IMG/VR virus record: IMGVR_UViG_3300049432_000036
Coordinates: 1 to 59,583 of that record
DNA: 59,583 bases
Origin: a virus
Lineage: Duplodnaviria; Caudoviricetes
Strand: one strand, 5' to 3'
This document shows, in pieces, positions 1-59,583 of the stretch. How positions within the stretch are numbered: position 1 is the stretch's first letter; the number at the start of each line of letters is the position of its first letter. Under the pieces are notes generated by a model. The model was not told where the DNA came from and ran no database searches. It worked only from the letters and a program-made list of their open reading frames with translations. The position numbers were made by a program, and so were the translations under genes.

Positions 1-127
1 AGACCGCCGCGCCGGTCCCCGCGTCCCTGGCTAGCTCCAACGAAGCGTTCTGAGAGGAACTGAAATGCGATTCATCACCAAGGCGAAGTACGCACTCATG
101 ATCGTGGCCGTAACGGCCAGCATGGGT
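1..127. repeat. 127-bp terminal direct repeat (copy 1), assembly circularisation overlap
   Basis: Identical to 59457-59583; cuts through genes; length equals a common assembler k-mer. Confidence 0.95.
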
Positions 128-10458: not shown

Positions 10459-11472
10459 ATGGTTGCAAGAGGCAAGGTTGTCGTCGCCAAGTGGGGCGTG
10501 CCCTCGAAGGAGCCCGAGGACGTTCCGGATTTCCTCAGCAATGAGGAGATCGCGGAGAAGATGGGCGGTGAGCCCAAGGGCGTTTACCGCCTCAAGCTCA
10601 AGAAGATGGTCGTCGTCAAGAACAAGAACAACGACGACATGATCAAGATCACCGCCGAGATCTTCGAGACGGACAAGGAGAAGAAGGGCTACAACGGCTG
10701 GGCCTTCTGGACTCAGGAGAACGTCACCGAGGAGTCCGCCGGATACCTCAAGGCGTTCCTCCGGGCGTTCGGCGCTTCGTGGGCCGACTTCCAGCAGCGC
10801 ACGAAGATGACGCCGGAGACCAAGACCGAACCGGCCCAGATTGTCTCCATCGGCAAGGTCAACTTCGCCGGTACCAAGCCGGTCCTGGTCCGCGCCACGG
10901 TCGGTATGGGCCGGGCGCAGAACGGCTACGAAGCCCGTACCGAGATCAAGCGCTGGCTGCCGATGGCGGACGCCGACGCCGACGCCGATGAGGTCGAAGA
11001 CGCTGACGAGGTCGAGGATGAGGACCTGTTGGACGACGAGGACCTGGAGGAGTCGGCCGACGGCGGTGAGCTGGAGGATGAGGACGACGAGGAAGCGGAG
11101 CTGCGCGAAGAGCTGGACGGGCTGAGCCTCCCGGACCTTCGCAAGCGCATCAAGTCCAACGACGCCGACGCCAAGACGGTTGGGCTCAAGAAGCCCGCCC
11201 TGATTGACCTCATCGTGGAGCAGGAGTTGCTGCTGGACGACGAGGAAGAGCCGGAAGACGAGCTGGACGAAGACGAGGACGACGGCGGTGAGGCCGAACT
11301 CCGGGAGGAGCTGGAGGCGCTGACCATCGGCGCTCTCAAGCAGCGGGCCAAGGCCAACGGCGAGAAGGTTGTTGTCCTCAAGCCGATCAAGGACAAGGCT
11401 GAGGTCATCGACATCATCGTGACCCAGGAGCTTCTGGGCGATGACGAGGACGGCGAAGAACCGCCGTTCTGA
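10459..11472 (+). CDS. ssDNA-binding protein-like (DUF669-like) with acidic tail and two helical repeats
   Basis: Follows Sak4-like ATPase; beta-rich N-domain; D/E-rich tail ending EEPPF. Confidence 0.7.
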   Translation: MVARGKVVVAKWGVPSKEPEDVPDFLSNEEIAEKMGGEPKGVYRLKLKKMVVVKNKNNDDMIKITAEIFETDKEKKGYNGWAFWTQENVTEESAGYLKAFLRAFGASWADFQQRTKMTPETKTEPAQIVSIGKVNFAGTKPVLVRATVGMGRAQNGYEARTEIKRWLPMADADADADEVEDADEVEDEDLLDDEDLEESADGGELEDEDDEEAELREELDGLSLPDLRKRIKSNDADAKTVGLKKPALIDLIVEQELLLDDEEEPEDELDEDEDDGGEAELREELEALTIGALKQRAKANGEKVVVLKPIKDKAEVIDIIVTQELLGDDEDGEEPPF

Positions 11473-55365: not shown

Positions 55366-55542
55366 ATGGAAAGTGAAGAGGAAGTGGTCGGTATCAACTC
55401 CGACTACCGCATGGAGGAACTGTCCGGCGATGAGGTCGCAGCCCTGGCCTTCGAGGCAGAGCACCGTCACCTCAAGTCGTGTCAGTCTGACGACGAGTCC
55501 AATGGTGAAAGCGACCTGAGCCTGACGGAGGAGGGCGAATGA
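55366..55542 (+). CDS. Small acidic protein (58 aa, not in ORF track)
   Basis: AAGGAG RBS; ATGA overlap with endolysin. Confidence 0.5.
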   Translation: MESEEEVVGINSDYRMEELSGDEVAALAFEAEHRHLKSCQSDDESNGESDLSLTEEGE

Positions 55543-56429
55543 CCGCGTATGCGTTGAGCGCCTTTGGCCCCAATCCCAACGCCGGTAAGTCGCCGAACGG
55601 CGCACAAGGTCGCGGTTGGGGTCCGGGTTGGCCGGATTGCCAGTCGAACAAGATGGTGAAGGTCACGAACGGCGACCACTCCGTCAACGTCCGGCGCGAG
55701 ATCGCCGAACTGGTCCTCACGCTGTTCCGGATTACGGCGCTGCGCGGATATGACATCAACCCGAAGGGCCAGCCGAACCAGACCTGGGGCTTCGCCTGCA
55801 GGGCTATAGCGAACACGCGTCGGGCATCGAACCACTCGTGGGGACTCGCGATCGACATCAACGCGCCGTCGAACCCCTACTCCATCACCTTCCACACGAA
55901 CATCCCGCCGCAGGTCGTGAACGACTGGGAGGTGTGTGGCTGGTACTGGGGCGGCCGGTACACCGTCAAGAAGGACACGATGCACTTCGAGTACATCGGC
56001 AATCCGACTTCCGTTGCCGGGCACTTGGCCAAGGCGAAGAGCATCCTCAACCAACTGCTCAACGCGTTGAAGCCTCCGGCGTCGAAGAACACCGTGAGCC
56101 TCAACTCCGTCGCATATGCGGCCAATGGTGGGTATTTACACTCCGGCCAGAAGGCTGCGGAGGACGACGCTCGTACGTGCCTGGAGTGGCTACACAACGT
56201 CCGGCACTACGCATCCGATCGAGACCTGCGGGTGTGGGAAGAGCGGCTGCGTATCGCCAAGGGCACGGACCGGCCGACCGATTGGAAGGCGGCGGGCGCG
56301 CAGTACGCCGGGATCATCAAGCGGTTCCAGCGCGTCCAAGGTCTCGCGGCTGACGGAGTCGTCGGCCCGCTCACGCGGTCGAAGCTTGCGGCCGCTATGA
56401 ACGCTGACAACTACCGCGTCAGCCTCTGA
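55539..56429 (+). CDS. Endolysin: M15 peptidase + peptidoglycan-binding domain
   Basis: SNHSWGLAIDIN, DTMHFE; C-terminal FQRVQGLAADGVVGPLT. Confidence 0.92.
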   Translation: MTAYALSAFGPNPNAGKSPNGAQGRGWGPGWPDCQSNKMVKVTNGDHSVNVRREIAELVLTLFRITALRGYDINPKGQPNQTWGFACRAIANTRRASNHSWGLAIDINAPSNPYSITFHTNIPPQVVNDWEVCGWYWGGRYTVKKDTMHFEYIGNPTSVAGHLAKAKSILNQLLNALKPPASKNTVSLNSVAYAANGGYLHSGQKAAEDDARTCLEWLHNVRHYASDRDLRVWEERLRIAKGTDRPTDWKAAGAQYAGIIKRFQRVQGLAADGVVGPLTRSKLAAAMNADNYRVSL

Positions 56430-57160: not shown

Positions 57161-57588
57161 CCGCCGAAGAAGACCTCAAGCTGCTGCTACAACTCGGCAC
57201 CGTCGACAACATCACGACAACGGCCCTGACCGACGCCGACCACATCGCCGGAGGCATCCCGAGATGGGCGGAGATCGTGGTGGATGTCGAGCGCGAAGGG
57301 AAGCTGCTGCGGCACTACTTCACGCGCCACGACGGCGAAGCGCTCGTGATGTCGGTACTCCGAGGGATGCACCCCCAGGCCGGTCGGCCGGTCGTCGGCT
57401 TCCTCTGGGAGAGGCTGGACGACTGCATGGTTGGCATCCTGGACGGCGAGATCGAGCCGGATGAGAAGCTTCGGTTCAAGGGCGAAGCGCTGGGACTCGC
57501 GTTCGCTATCGCGACCATCCGGCGACCACACGACCCGGACGTGGACGCTGTGCGCAAAGAGGCACGAGAGCGGTACGACGCGCGCTGA
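57157..57588 (+). CDS. Hypothetical protein
   Basis: GTGA overlap; 143 aa. Confidence 0.7.
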   Translation: MTAEEDLKLLLQLGTVDNITTTALTDADHIAGGIPRWAEIVVDVEREGKLLRHYFTRHDGEALVMSVLRGMHPQAGRPVVGFLWERLDDCMVGILDGEIEPDEKLRFKGEALGLAFAIATIRRPHDPDVDAVRKEARERYDAR

Positions 57589-57734
57589 CGCGTCAGTTAC
57601 TTGCAGTTACTGGCTACGGAGACTCACACATAAGCTGCATAACTCTCCGTAGTCGAAGGTAACGATCGTATTACGAGATCGCCCCGAGGGTGGTTTCGGC
57701 TTTGCGCTCCCTACGCGCGTAGGGTTAAGTCACT

Positions 57735-58198
57735 GTCACGGCCCCCGCTGTGGGGCTGCCTCGCTGAGAGAGCGGGCGCGCAACCTACGAGAGATACGGA
57801 CCGGCTAGTTGAGGTTCGGTAGCTCGCAGGGGATGGATCGAGAGATGGTGTCGGTCCGTAGCCCATACTCATCGGCCGGGAATCCGGGAAACTGGAATCG
57901 GCGGAGCCTGCCCTTAGGGAGAGGCTGAGCGGAGCGGAGAGGCACTAGCCCTCGTTGAGGCTCTAATCGGCACGCTACAAGGGAGAGACCGAAGTTGGTC
58001 TAAAGGACGGGTTGTAACACGAACCCCTTACCTGCCATCCACATCTACGGAACCGACTCTCATGGAGTTCGGCGCGGCCTAGGAAGCTACGAAATGACTT
58101 GCAGCCTGGCGGTTGTATCGCCCTCGAAGTCATGGAGAACTGAATAACGTCAACGAAACAAAGCAAGTTGGACGAATCGAAGCGGAGTTGATTCGTCC
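57735..58198 (+). ncRNA. Candidate large structured non-coding RNA (ends approximate)
   Basis: No credible ORF; about ten helices including two 11-bp stems, a GAAA tetraloop and long-range complementarity. Confidence 0.6.
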
Positions 58199-58272
58199 GG
58201 CCCCGTCGTACAAGCAGTAGCGCCAGGGGATGACCTTGGAGATGTCGGTATCGAATCCGACCGGGGCACGCA
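58199..58272 (+). tRNA. Degenerate tRNA-like element (pseudo-tRNA)
   Basis: Acceptor GCCCCG/CGGGGC; 5-7-5 arm CCAGG-GGATGAC-CTTGG; T-arm GTCGG-TATCGAAT-CCGAC; lacks U33, D-loop GG and CCA. Confidence 0.6.
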
Positions 58273-58297
58273 GATACCAACCGATAGGAGCTGCAAA

Positions 58298-58738
58298 ATG
58301 AAGATCAAGTTCATTGCCGAGTACACCGATGGCGTCTACACCTTCCTGGCGCTTGAGACCGGAGACCACCCGACTGGCTACTGTTCGGAGCAGGGTTGCA
58401 TGAACACCCCGAACAGCACCCTGTATGACGTTGAGGGCGACCCGATGTTGTTCTGCGCATACCACATCCAACGTCTCGACCAGGATGACGAGATGGGATG
58501 GAAGCGCGGCCGGACGATTTACCCGGTTGATGCCGATGGAGTCGAGGAGTGCTCGACCCCGGCGCAGATCGTCGCCGAATGGATCATCAACAACCCCGAG
58601 ATGTTCGTCGAGGTTGTGCCGATCCCGTTCAAGGAGATCGTTGCGGAAGACGAGAAGCGCGAGGGCATGCGCGACTGTAAGGGACGCGGGCCGGATCACC
58701 CGCAGTTCGACCCGGAGCAAGCCTACAACTTCAGCTAG
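58298..58738 (+). CDS. Hypothetical early protein with Cys/His motif
   Basis: AGGAG RBS; CSEQGC...FCAYH. Confidence 0.75.
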   Translation: MKIKFIAEYTDGVYTFLALETGDHPTGYCSEQGCMNTPNSTLYDVEGDPMLFCAYHIQRLDQDDEMGWKRGRTIYPVDADGVEECSTPAQIVAEWIINNPEMFVEVVPIPFKEIVAEDEKREGMRDCKGRGPDHPQFDPEQAYNFS

Positions 58739-58793
58739 GTCGAAACGGGGCCATTGGCCCCGTCGTCGCGTAGATGCGCGGCCTGACGAGACC
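58738..58793 (+). ncRNA. Type II hammerhead ribozyme
   Basis: GGTC-GAAA-[CGGGGCC att GGCCCCG]-TC^-[GTCGCGT agat GCGCGGC]-CTGACGA-GACC: complete catalytic core with three closed stems. Confidence 0.9.
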
Positions 58794-58816
58794 GTACCAA
58801 ACAGGAAGGCATTACC

Positions 58817-59509
58817 ATGGCAAACACGACTGCGCGGACTCGCAAGGCCGTCGCCGCAACGAAGACCGCTACTGCGAACATCACCGCCGCACGGAAGGCC
58901 GTAGCGAAGAAGACTGCGGCAGCGCCGGTCGGCGACAAGCCGAAGAAGGAGCAGACCTTCGAGGAGCGCGACTGGACATACTTGGACGACAAGCCACCCA
59001 GCGAGCAGCACGAGATCCTGGCCAAGGAGATCAACCGCCGGACGAACCTGGTGGATGACGACGGCGAGGACACGCCGATCAGCCCGAAGCAGGTCCAGGC
59101 CGTTCTCGCGATGTTCCCGCACTTCCAGCGGTCGGCGACGAACAAGGCCCGCGCCGGTTACCACCCGCTTGCCGCAGAGATCGTGGAGAAGCGTTCGGAG
59201 CACATGACCCTGGCGCACAAGGAAGCACGGGAGATCATGGACGGACTGGCCCAGGAAGTGGCCAAGAAGGCTCCGGCCAAGAAGACCGCAACCCCGAAGG
59301 CCAACCCGGCCGGAGCGGCCAAGGCTGTGGCCAAGCGGGCCGCGAGCCCGAAGCTCAACACCGAGACCCGGCCGTCAACTCCGGCCAATCCCGCGCCGAC
59401 CGCCCCGCTTCCCCACAACGGCAAGGCTCCGGCTCGCAAGGCGCGGGTCACCAAGAAGACCGCCGCGCCGGTCCCCGCGTCCCTGGCTAGCTCCAACGAA
59501 GCGTTCTGA
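58817..59509 (+). CDS. Ala/Lys-rich histone-like early protein
   Basis: AKK/PAKK-rich arms around a folded core; AGGAAGG RBS. Confidence 0.8.
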   Translation: MANTTARTRKAVAATKTATANITAARKAVAKKTAAAPVGDKPKKEQTFEERDWTYLDDKPPSEQHEILAKEINRRTNLVDDDGEDTPISPKQVQAVLAMFPHFQRSATNKARAGYHPLAAEIVEKRSEHMTLAHKEAREIMDGLAQEVAKKAPAKKTATPKANPAGAAKAVAKRAASPKLNTETRPSTPANPAPTAPLPHNGKAPARKARVTKKTAAPVPASLASSNEAF

Positions 59510-59583
59510 GAGGAACTGAAATGCGATTCATCACCAAGGCGAAGTACGCACTCATGATCGTGGCCGTAACGGCCAGCATGGGT
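59457..59583. repeat. 127-bp terminal direct repeat (copy 2)
   Basis: Identical to 1-127. Confidence 0.95.

What the first reader, a model, noticed from the sequence alone, without database searches (positions are those of the whole stretch)
58738..58793. Canonical type II hammerhead ribozyme between two early genes
Seen: stem II GGTC(58738-41)/GACC(58790-93) with the conserved G10.1-C11.1 pair; GAAA 58742-45; stem III CGGGGCC/GGCCCCG; GUC triplet with predicted cleavage after C58764; stem I GTCGCGT/GCGCGGC; CUGACGA 58783-89. It starts on the last base of the upstream stop codon and would cut about 52 nt before the next ATG (58817). Established: every invariant hammerhead core nucleotide is present. 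Inference: it processes the early mRNA.
Basis: partly seen in the sequence, partly recalled or inferred. Interest (0 to 1): 0.8.

Follow-up and report, generated by a model that had tools for sequence, protein, structure and literature searches.

The report
Hammerhead ribozyme before a phage gene
A small self-cutting RNA of the well-known hammerhead kind sits just in front of a gene in an uncultured soil phage and is kept in related phages, so it is very probably real, but it is an ordinary example of something already known to be common in phages.

Summary
Window 58738-58793 (+) has every hammerhead core nucleotide and three helices in type II order, and its minimum-energy fold is that junction. 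My descriptor finds this one site and none in 200 shuffled genomes. Three related contigs carry the same element before the same gene. Their core is invariant and stems I and III change in a compensatory way. A 15-sequence set confirms stem I covariation.

It scores below Rfam's type II cut-off (30.7 against 37 bits). It lacks the loop I/3'-tail pseudoknot typical of type II. It belongs to a compact architecture that is common in phage contigs and that the Rfam model largely misses.

The most likely action is cutting after C58764, 52 nt before the ATG of a 230-aa gene of unknown function, which would give that mRNA its own 5' end. Cleavage, "early" timing and the effect on expression are all inferred; no RNA data were found.

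Phage hammerheads have been known since 2011 (PMC3088659). This scan has noted many on other DNA. Verdict: a real, new member of a known kind, of modest interest.

The parts
58298..58738 (+). Upstream ORF (146 aa, unknown function). Its stop TAG 58736-38 overlaps the first base of the ribozyme.
   Evidence: GC3 0.82. No Pfam or PHROG match. Homologous in L002 but replaced by an unrelated ORF in L003.
58737..58737 (+). A at position -1, directly 5' of stem II. Faces G58794 across the open end of stem II.
   Evidence: A at -1 in 71 of 71 other viral-contig type II hammerheads with a 4-bp stem II.
58738..58741 (+). Stem II, 5' strand GGUC (11.4-11.1).
58742..58744 (+). Core G12 A13 A14.
   Evidence: Invariant in all 4 relatives.
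58745..58763 (+). Stem III hairpin: A15.1-U16.1 plus CGGGGCC/GGCCCCG, loop AUU.
   Evidence: 15.2-16.2 is C-G or U-A among relatives. Paired insertions of 1 bp (L127) and 2 bp (L002).
58764..58764 (+). C17. Predicted cleavage between 58764 and 58765.
   Evidence: position computed. Cleavage itself not tested.
58765..58782 (+). Stem I hairpin: 7 bp GUCGCGU/GCGCGGC, loop AGAU. Would be the 5' end of the downstream RNA.
   Evidence: Pair 2 is U-G/G-U/A-U/U-A, pair 3 C-G/U-A, pair 5 C-G/G-C among the 4 relatives. All 6 counted pairs covary in the 15-sequence set.
58783..58789 (+). Core C3 U4 G5 A6 C7 G8 A9 (CUGACGA).
   Evidence: Invariant in all 4 relatives.
58790..58793 (+). Stem II, 3' strand GACC (10.1-10.4).
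   Evidence: The three relatives carry one extra U between A9 and G10.1.
58794..58794 (+). G at position +1, directly 3' of stem II. Possible non-Watson-Crick partner of A58737.
   Evidence: +1 is A in 54, G in 12, C in 5 and never U among 71 hammerheads. The pairing is inferred.
58803..58809 (+). Shine-Dalgarno-like AGGAAGG, 7 nt before the ATG. AACAGGAAGG is conserved in all relatives, including L131, which lacks the ribozyme.
58817..59509 (+). Downstream ORF (230 aa): helical core between Lys/Ala-rich disordered tails, function unknown. The ribozyme travels with this gene.
   Evidence: 35 homologues; pLDDT 72-93 for residues ~45-150. No Pfam, PHROG or PDB-fold match.

Best explanation
This is a genuine cis-acting hammerhead self-cleaving ribozyme of type II topology (stems I and III capped, stem II open). 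It lies in the 78-nt spacer between two co-directional genes of an uncultured soil actinophage.

When the polycistronic RNA is made, the element folds and cuts itself between C58764 and G58765. The upstream RNA then ends just after the stem III hairpin with a 2',3'-cyclic phosphate. The downstream RNA starts with a 5'-OH on the 7-bp stem I hairpin. It carries a 52-nt leader with the ribosome-binding site of the 230-aa gene. The two products are held together only by the 4-bp stem II and should fall apart.

The likely purpose is to give the downstream gene an mRNA end of its own, so that its stability and translation no longer depend on what lies upstream.

Shown here: the motif, its statistical rarity, its conservation with compensatory changes, and its linkage to the downstream gene. 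Inferred: cleavage itself, its rate in the cell, the direction of the effect on expression, and the 'early' timing.
For: 1. All 13 core nucleotides are present, and the three pairs next to the core are standard. These are the acceptance rules given in the Methods of PMC3088659 (passages; sequence).

2. The motif is rare. There is 1 descriptor hit in the genome and 0 of 200 shuffles give any. It is the only Rfam match at E<=0.5 in the whole window. The MFE fold equals the junction.

3. It is conserved. Of the 5 distinct contigs with a homologue of the 230-aa gene and readable upstream DNA (window, L002, L003, L127, L131), 4 carry the element at the same place. The core CUGACGA/GAAA/UC is invariant. 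Stem I pairs 2, 3 and 5 and stem III pair 15.2-16.2 change on both sides. Stem III grows by whole base pairs. Every cell is a standard pair. A fifth variant 5' half appears as a loose end of a 20,955-nt contig in run X4.

4. In a wider set of 15 sequences aligned by sequence alone, 96.7% of cells are paired against 76.3% in shuffles. All 6 counted stem I pairs change on both sides. The covariation score is 0.504 against 0.109 +/- 0.03 (0 of 500 shuffles reach it), and slid controls give at most 0.094.

5. The element is linked to the downstream gene. Homology with L003 begins at 58732 while the upstream ORF differs. Contigs in runs X2 and X3 match 58735-58887 with 1-2 differences and diverge upstream of 58735.

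6. The context is typical. Among 92 descriptor hammerheads in other viral contigs, 43% of the 77 with a downstream same-strand ORF lie within 60 nt of its start, against 12% of random positions. Only 10% lie inside a same-strand ORF, against 49%.

7. There is precedent. Clustered phage hammerheads were shown to cleave in ~2-kb transcripts. A halovirus hammerhead lies 13 nt before an early gene, where the mapped 5' end matches the cut site (PMC3088659 passages).
Against: 1. The score is below the curated Rfam cut-off (30.7 against 37 bits).

2. There is no loop I/3'-tail pseudoknot. The best complementarity is 2 bp in all 4 relatives. The 3-bp matches to the 5' flank are no better than shuffles (P 0.6-0.99). 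Hammerheads without a stem I-stem II contact are slow at cellular Mg2+ (PMC6155905 passages), so the rate in vivo is uncertain.

3. In a 221-nt context the MFE keeps stem III, but it pairs the 5' strand of stem I with upstream coding sequence. In the MFE of the 3' product, stem I is replaced by long-range pairing.

4. One complete related genome (L131's record) lacks the element at this spot and keeps only a hairpin and the same ribosome-binding site, so the ribozyme is dispensable. Weak homologues in Gordonia phage LilyPad and Nocardia phage P3.1 also lack it.

5. The direction of the effect is open. In the glmS case, cleavage leads to degradation of the downstream RNA by cellular RNases (PMC6765202 passage).
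Confidence: 0.8

Rival explanations
1. It is a conserved structured RNA of hammerhead descent that no longer cuts at a useful rate in the cell. It would act as a pair of hairpins, for example as a barrier to exonucleases, a ribosome or RNase spacer, or a protein-binding site.
For: There is no detectable pseudoknot or loop-loop contact. The Rfam score is sub-threshold. The relative L131 keeps only a hairpin at this place.
Against: All 13 core nucleotides are invariant in 4 relatives while the stems vary freely. Hairpins alone would not constrain CUGACGA, GAAA and UC. The compact architecture has conserved flanks: A at -1 in 71 of 71. That points to a non-Watson-Crick contact rather than to none.
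Confidence: 0.1
2. The ribozyme serves the upstream RNA. It would make the 3' end of a leader transcript made of the 709-nt ORF-free region plus the 146-aa ORF, rather than serving the downstream gene.
For: A long ORF-free stretch, partly conserved, lies upstream. After cleavage the upstream RNA would end in the stable stem III hairpin.
Against: The element stays with the downstream gene when the upstream ORF is replaced (L003) and when upstream DNA diverges (X2/X3 contigs). A well-coding 146-aa ORF separates it from the ORF-free stretch.
Confidence: 0.1
3. Cleavage is gated by translation of the upstream ORF. A ribosome terminating at the stop codon, which overlaps stem II or lies 7 nt before it, would unfold stem II and part of the core. 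Cutting would then report on upstream translation.
For: The stop codon overlaps the first base of stem II in the window and in L003, and lies 7 nt upstream in L002 and L127.
Against: Tight gene packing in phages gives the same picture without any regulation. No test was possible. In the wider set the TAG was fixed by my search pattern, so its recurrence there says nothing.
Confidence: 0.1
4. It is a chance match to the hammerhead consensus in GC-rich intergenic DNA.
For: Sub-threshold RF02276 matches at E<=10 occur in 11 of 14 control genomes.
Against: 0 of 200 shuffled genomes give a descriptor hit. The element is conserved with compensatory changes in independent contigs.
Confidence: 0.01

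Closest known systems
Type II hammerhead ribozymes of bacteria and prophages (Rfam RF02276; Perreault et al. 2011, PMC3088659, passages read)
   Same: The catalytic core and the topology are the same (stems I and III capped, stem II open). The habitat is the same: phage DNA, intergenic, co-directional with the genes, close to the next start codon. The proposed role is the same: cutting long phage transcripts into gene-length mRNAs.
   Different: The published consensus has a very short stem II and a pseudoknot of 4 or more bp between loop I and the 3' tail. Here stem II has 4 bp, loop I has 4 nt, and the best tail complementarity is 2 bp. The score is 30.7 bits against a 37-bit cut-off. The three relatives are not found by the model at all.
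Compact type II hammerheads seen here in IMG/VR phage contigs (my own grouping; not a named family)
   Same: Shared features: a 4-bp stem II GGUC/GACC, A at -1 and a purine at +1, a 7-bp stem I whose last pair is U.G, a short loop I, and often a ribosome-binding site and ATG 15-45 nt downstream.
   Different: Most have a 3-nt loop I (60 of 89) and U at N7 (66 of 89). The window has a 4-nt loop and its relatives have 5-nt loops. N7 is C. The relatives carry an extra U after A9, as do 18 of 89. Many of those phages carry arrays of up to 9 copies. This genome has a single copy.
Halovirus HF1/HF2 hammerhead (HHphage) before the early helicase gene (PMC3088659, Discussion passage)
   Same: [quoted passage not shown]
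   Different: That one is a core variant in an archaeal virus, 13 nt before the ATG. This one has a consensus core, lies 52 nt (cut site) or 23 nt (3' edge) before the ATG, and has no transcript mapping.
Engineered ribozyme insulators such as RiboJ (recalled from memory, no call)
   Same: A hammerhead is placed in the 5' leader, so that the mRNA of the downstream gene always starts at the same nucleotide with a hairpin, whatever lies upstream.
   Different: That is a synthetic device built on a type III satellite-RNA ribozyme. A natural equivalent role here is an inference.

Membership tests
Hammerhead ribozyme (class) | Core consensus C3 U4 G5 A6 N7 G8 A9, G12 A13 A14, A15.1-U16.1, H17 (criteria as listed in PMC3088659 Methods) | tested here: met
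   CUGACGA 58783-89, GAA 58742-44, A58745-U58763, C58764. The same holds in L002, L003 and L127.
Hammerhead ribozyme (class) | Three helices around the core, with no mispair directly next to the core (10.1-11.1, 1.1-2.1, 15.1-16.1) and no multiple mispairs in short stems | tested here: met
   G58790-C58741, G58765-C58782 and A58745-U58763. Stems of 4, 7 and 8 bp without mismatch, with two G.U pairs in stem I.
Hammerhead ribozyme (class) | Helices supported by compensatory changes among homologues | tested here: met
   4 orthologous elements; 15 sequences: covariation 0.504 against 0.109, 0 of 500 shuffles. Stem II never varies, so it is neither supported nor contradicted.
Hammerhead ribozyme (class) | Mg2+-dependent self-cleavage 3' of H17, giving a 2',3'-cyclic phosphate and a 5'-OH | not testable with these tools
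No run listed as RNA holds this DNA.
Type II topology | Stems I and III closed by loops; stem II open, carrying the 5' and 3' ends | tested here: met
   Order along the strand is II(5')-GAAA-III hairpin-C17-I hairpin-CUGACGA-II(3').
Rfam RF02276 Hammerhead_II | Score at or above the curated gathering cut-off (37 bits) | tested here: not met
   30.7 bits. This is a database threshold, not a biochemical criterion. None of the 36 compact hammerheads in 20 other loci reach it either, nor do the elements in 14 further loci.
Typical prokaryotic type II hammerhead (Perreault 2011 consensus) | Pseudoknot of 4 or more bp between loop I and the nucleotides just 3' of stem II | tested here: not met
   Best complementarity is 2 bp in each of the 4 relatives. 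The paper itself says that only a majority of type II examples have it.
Natural fast-cleaving hammerheads | Some tertiary contact between stem I and stem II elements | tested here: inconclusive
   No Watson-Crick contact was found. A at -1 is invariant in 71 of 71 and +1 is never U. Loop I positions 1 and 3 are A in all 4 relatives. This hints at a non-canonical contact that cannot be tested here.

The most novel reading that the evidence does not exclude
The window's ribozyme would be one member of a distinct, under-annotated 'compact' architecture of type II hammerheads. Its features are a 4-bp stem II capped by an invariant A(-1) facing a purine at +1, a 7-bp stem I closed by U.G with a 3-5 nt loop, and no pseudoknot. 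On this reading it is the commonest form in phage contigs, escapes the Rfam type II model, replaces the Watson-Crick pseudoknot with a loop I / open-stem-II contact like that of type I and III ribozymes, and is inherited as one cassette with the ribosome-binding site and gene behind it.
Probability: 0.35. Interest if true: 0.5.

Novelty: new member of a known kind. Interest (0 to 1): 0.3.

Why it matters
What hammerheads do in phages is still an open question (reviews PMC6765202 and PMC6155905, passages). This example adds a clean single-copy case in an actinophage lineage. In the held library I found no paper that joins hammerheads with actinobacteriophages.

The case comes with a natural comparison. 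Close relatives either carry the ribozyme (L002, L003, L127) or lack it (L131) before the same gene and the same ribosome-binding site. That pair could be put before a reporter in Mycobacterium smegmatis or Arthrobacter to measure what cleavage does to the downstream mRNA.

The practical lesson is for annotation. The curated Rfam type II model misses this compact form: none of 36 compact elements pass. Phage ribozyme counts based on Rfam are therefore too low.

Tried and rejected
- **More relatives.** The 146-aa upstream protein found no relative in viral contigs. The 230-aa protein or its alignments found L002, L003 and L131 in viral contigs, L126-L128 in metagenome contigs, and nothing in genome contigs. 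L126 and L128 are cut before the spacer and say nothing about it. blastn of 58200-59583 against cultured phages found nothing. A 3'-half/RBS pattern found only the two known contigs.
- **RNA evidence.** No RNA holder is listed. The four runs laid were contigs, so starts, ends and expression cannot be read from them.
- **Rfam on relatives.** RF02276 does not find the L002, L003 or L127 elements even at E<=10.
- **Covariance model.** My model R1 kept MAFFT's one-column slip in the window's stem II, so alignment A4 was not used for counts. The four elements were parsed by script instead.
- **Alignment A5.** The middle of stem III and the 7th pair of stem I are not in register, so only 12 pairs were counted. 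The L139 row is shifted by one column and accounts for most of the unpaired cells. Four pattern hits with long stem III inserts (L028, L137, L145, L146) and the duplicate L143 were left out of A5.
- **Split or one-to-many hammerhead.** This idea came from earlier notes of the scan. Half-sites CTGANGAGACC and AGGTCGAAAC with 1 mismatch or fewer occur 5 times each, at chance level. Rejected.
- **Function of the 230-aa protein.** There is no Pfam or PHROG match, no usable Atlas hit, and no PDB fold match at E<=0.001 for the model (mean pLDDT 65.8). It remains unknown.
- **Other RNAs nearby.** There is no Rfam match at E<=5 in 57500-58320 apart from a snoRNA chance hit, and no tRNA.
- **Promoters and terminators.** There are no sigma-70-like sites in 57300-59583, and one terminator-like site on the minus strand, below the shuffle mean. 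This is uninformative for actinobacterial promoters.
- **Supplements.** Supplementary files of PMC3088659 (figures S4-S7 on tertiary contacts) were not seen. They may already show the compact, pseudoknot-free type II form.
- **First submission.** One search was returned for a missing confidence field. This report is the same with that field added and one garbled sentence in the membership table corrected.

Full report
**What is in the sequence.** The window is a complete 59,583-nt virus record with 60.6% G+C and a 127-nt terminal repeat. Nearly all coding ORFs are on the + strand. At 58738-58793 (+) the sequence reads GGUC / GAAA / CGGGGCC-AUU-GGCCCCG / UC / GUCGCGU-AGAU-GCGCGGC / CUGACGA / GACC. 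The upstream ORF 58298-58738 ends in TAG 58736-38. The next ATG is at 58817 and is preceded by AGGAAGG at 58803-09. Folded alone, the 56 nt give exactly the three-way junction (-29.2 kcal/mol, z -2.89, 1 of 200 shuffles as stable).

**Is it more than chance?** I wrote a type II descriptor: stem II of at least 3 bp, GAAA, a stem III hairpin ending in U, H17, a stem I hairpin, then CUGANGA. It finds this one site on both strands of the genome. It finds none in 200 dinucleotide shuffles, even with looser stems. At gathering thresholds Rfam lists nothing in the window. With E-values, the only match at or below 0.5 in the whole window is RF02276 Hammerhead_II at 58738-58800, at 30.7 bits against a cut-off of 37 and E 0.028. 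The E-value is 1.7e-4 for the 351-nt stretch and 6.7e-6 for the single family. At E<=10 the same model rings in 11 of 14 control genomes, so I do not lean on the Rfam score.

**Relatives.** The downstream 230-aa protein has 35 homologues in the large protein collection. DNA could be fetched for five distinct contigs with a readable spacer:
- the window;
- L002, a 61-kb virus record;
- L003, a 16.7-kb fragment;
- L127, a metagenome contig;
- L131, a 60-kb virus record.

L126 and L128 are cut before the spacer. Four of the five carry the element at the same place, ending 20-25 nt before the same AACAGGAAGG...ATG. In these four, CUGACGA, GAAA and UC never change. Stem I pair 2 is U-G, G-U, A-U or U-A. 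Pair 3 is C-G or U-A, pair 5 is C-G or G-C, and pair 7 is U-G or U-A. Stem III pair 15.2-16.2 is C-G or U-A, and the stem grows by one (L127) or two (L002) whole base pairs. No cell is unpaired. The three relatives have one extra U between A9 and G10.1. A 20,955-nt contig in run X4 shows a fifth version of the 5' half as a loose end. Contigs of runs X2 and X3 match 58735-58887 with 1-2 differences and then diverge upstream. These runs are DNA or of unknown kind, and X1 may be the source sample.

**Which gene does it belong to?** L003 has an unrelated ORF upstream. Its nucleotide homology with the window starts at 58732. The X2/X3 contigs also break at 58735. The ribozyme therefore travels with the downstream gene. 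L131, at 55% protein identity and from a complete genome, has the same ribosome-binding site. In place of the ribozyme it has only a GC-rich hairpin: my model aligns it with 49 positions deleted. Neither the descriptor nor RF02276 finds a hammerhead there. The element is therefore dispensable. Weak homologues in cultured Gordonia phage LilyPad and Nocardia phage P3.1 follow a repeat-rich gap of about 1.1 kb and have no hammerhead.

**A wider family.** Of these, 56 hold a full descriptor hammerhead, 92 elements in all and up to 9 per locus. A second pattern with the window's flanks found 18 stretches, 16 of them in new contigs. All of these fold as type II hammerheads, and most are followed within 15-45 nt by a purine-rich site and ATG. 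I aligned fifteen of them by sequence alone and counted 12 pairs that are safely in register:
- 96.7% of cells are paired, against 76.3% in shuffles;
- all six stem I pairs change on both sides;
- the covariation score is 0.504 against 0.109 +/- 0.03, reached by 0 of 500 shuffles, and slid controls give at most 0.094.

Stem II and the core were fixed by the pattern, so they carry no weight in this count. Across the 92 elements, 43% of the 77 with a downstream same-strand ORF lie within 60 nt of its start, against 12% of random positions. Only 10% lie inside a same-strand ORF, against 49%. ORF calling here was crude.

**Architecture.** The published type II consensus has a very short stem II and a loop I/3'-tail pseudoknot of at least 4 bp (PMC3088659, passages). 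PMC6155905 says type II contacts are usually Watson-Crick (legend passage). Here the best loop I/tail complementarity is 2 bp in all four relatives, and matches to the 5' flank are at chance level. The window instead fits a compact form that dominates my viral sample. The numbers come:
- Stem I has 7 bp in 67 of 89 distinct elements.
- Loop I has 3 nt in 60 of 89.
- In the 71 elements with a 4-bp stem II, the base before stem II is A in 71 of 71.
- The base after stem II is A (54), G (12) or C (5), and never U.

The window has A58737 and G58794. In 20 loci with 52 descriptor elements, none of the 36 compact ones reaches the RF02276 cut-off. Six of the other 16, with a long loop I or a long stem I, do reach it. 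None of 14 further loci scores either. From memory, a purine-A pair capping a 4-bp stem II resembles loop II of the classical type I and III ribozymes. That is a lead, not a result.

**Genome context.** The gene map is as follows:
- Helicase, exonuclease, Sak4-like protein, primase, DNA polymerase and nucleotide-metabolism genes fill about 3.7-25 kb.
- Terminase through the tail genes fill 30.8-53 kb.
- An M15 endolysin is at 55,539-56,429.
- A 709-nt ORF-free stretch follows at 57,589-58,297.
- Then come the 146-aa ORF, the ribozyme and the 230-aa ORF.

The terminal repeat cuts through the end of the 230-aa ORF and the start of the next ORF, so the map wraps round into ORF 65-466 and the replication genes. 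"Early" is thus a reasonable guess from gene order and no more. The capsid is 42-47% identical to capsids of Micrococcus, Microbacterium, Arthrobacter and Gordonia phages, which suggests an actinobacterial host. The 230-aa protein has a confident helical core (pLDDT 72-93 for about residues 45-150) between Lys/Ala-rich disordered tails. It has no family or fold match.

**How it most likely works.** Self-cleavage after C58764 would leave the upstream RNA ending just behind the 8-bp stem III hairpin. The downstream RNA would begin with a 5'-OH at the 7-bp stem I hairpin, 52 nt before the ATG. Only the 4-bp stem II would hold the halves together. This fits the proposal that phage hammerheads cut long transcripts into gene-length mRNAs with their own stability and translation (PMC3088659; PMC6765202). 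It also fits the halovirus case where a mapped 5' end matches the cut site. The direction of the effect is open: in the glmS system the cut RNA is degraded. Thermodynamic folds of longer stretches compete with stem I. Activity would then depend on co-transcriptional folding and on ribosomes clearing the upstream ORF.

**Novelty.** Type II hammerheads in phage DNA were described in 2011, and their function is still called an open question. Searches for 'hammerhead' with 'actinobacteriophage' found 0 papers. Searches with 'mycobacteriophage' found 4 papers whose titles and abstract openings concern other subjects (search listings only). This scan has already noted hammerheads in many other phage genomes, including arrays joined to ribosome-binding sites (unchecked AI notes). 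I therefore class this as a new member of a known kind. Its interest is modest: it is a clean single-copy case with a natural ribozyme-less relative, and it shows a blind spot in the Rfam model.

Noticed in passing
window 57589-58297: This 709-nt stretch has no ORF and lies between the lysis genes and the 146-aa ORF. It has no Rfam match at E<=5 and no tRNA. 57593-57776 is about 78% identical to L002 and L003, and 57876-57939 is 85% identical to L131. The rest is not alignable.
   Followed up: partly
L004-L123 and L134-L148 (viral contigs): Type II hammerheads fall into two architectures. The compact one (4-bp stem II, 7-bp stem I, 3-4 nt loop, A at -1 in 71 of 71) is missed by Rfam RF02276: 0 of 36 pass the cut-off in 20 loci, and 0 of 14 further loci score. 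Six of 16 long-loop elements pass.
   Followed up: partly
L135 10002-10065 (-): A Twister-P5 ribozyme (RF02684, 49.2 bits, above its cut-off) lies about 730 nt from a type II hammerhead (10793-10852, -) on the same strand of a 66-kb viral contig.
   Followed up: no
L036 2150-5077; L098 638-3809; L007 6231-9036: These are arrays of 9, 6 and 6 descriptor hammerheads within about 3 kb on one strand of viral contigs.
   Followed up: no
L131 2160-2260: In this orthologous spacer of a complete related genome, the hammerhead is replaced by a GC-rich hairpin (UUGGGGC-GUUG-GGCCCCAA) in front of the same AACAGGAAGG...ATG. It resembles a leftover stem III.
   Followed up: partly
L132 1293-2389 (Gordonia phage LilyPad) and L133 1342-2431 (Nocardia phage P3.1): An unannotated, repeat-rich gap of about 1.1 kb lies between membrane/lysis genes and the weak homologue of the 230-aa gene. 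It is the same layout as in the window, but without a hammerhead.
   Followed up: no
window 1-127 and 59457-59583: The 127-nt terminal repeat runs through the end of the 230-aa ORF and the start of the next ORF. It looks like the wrap-around of a circular or permuted assembly rather than a physical genome end.
   Followed up: partly
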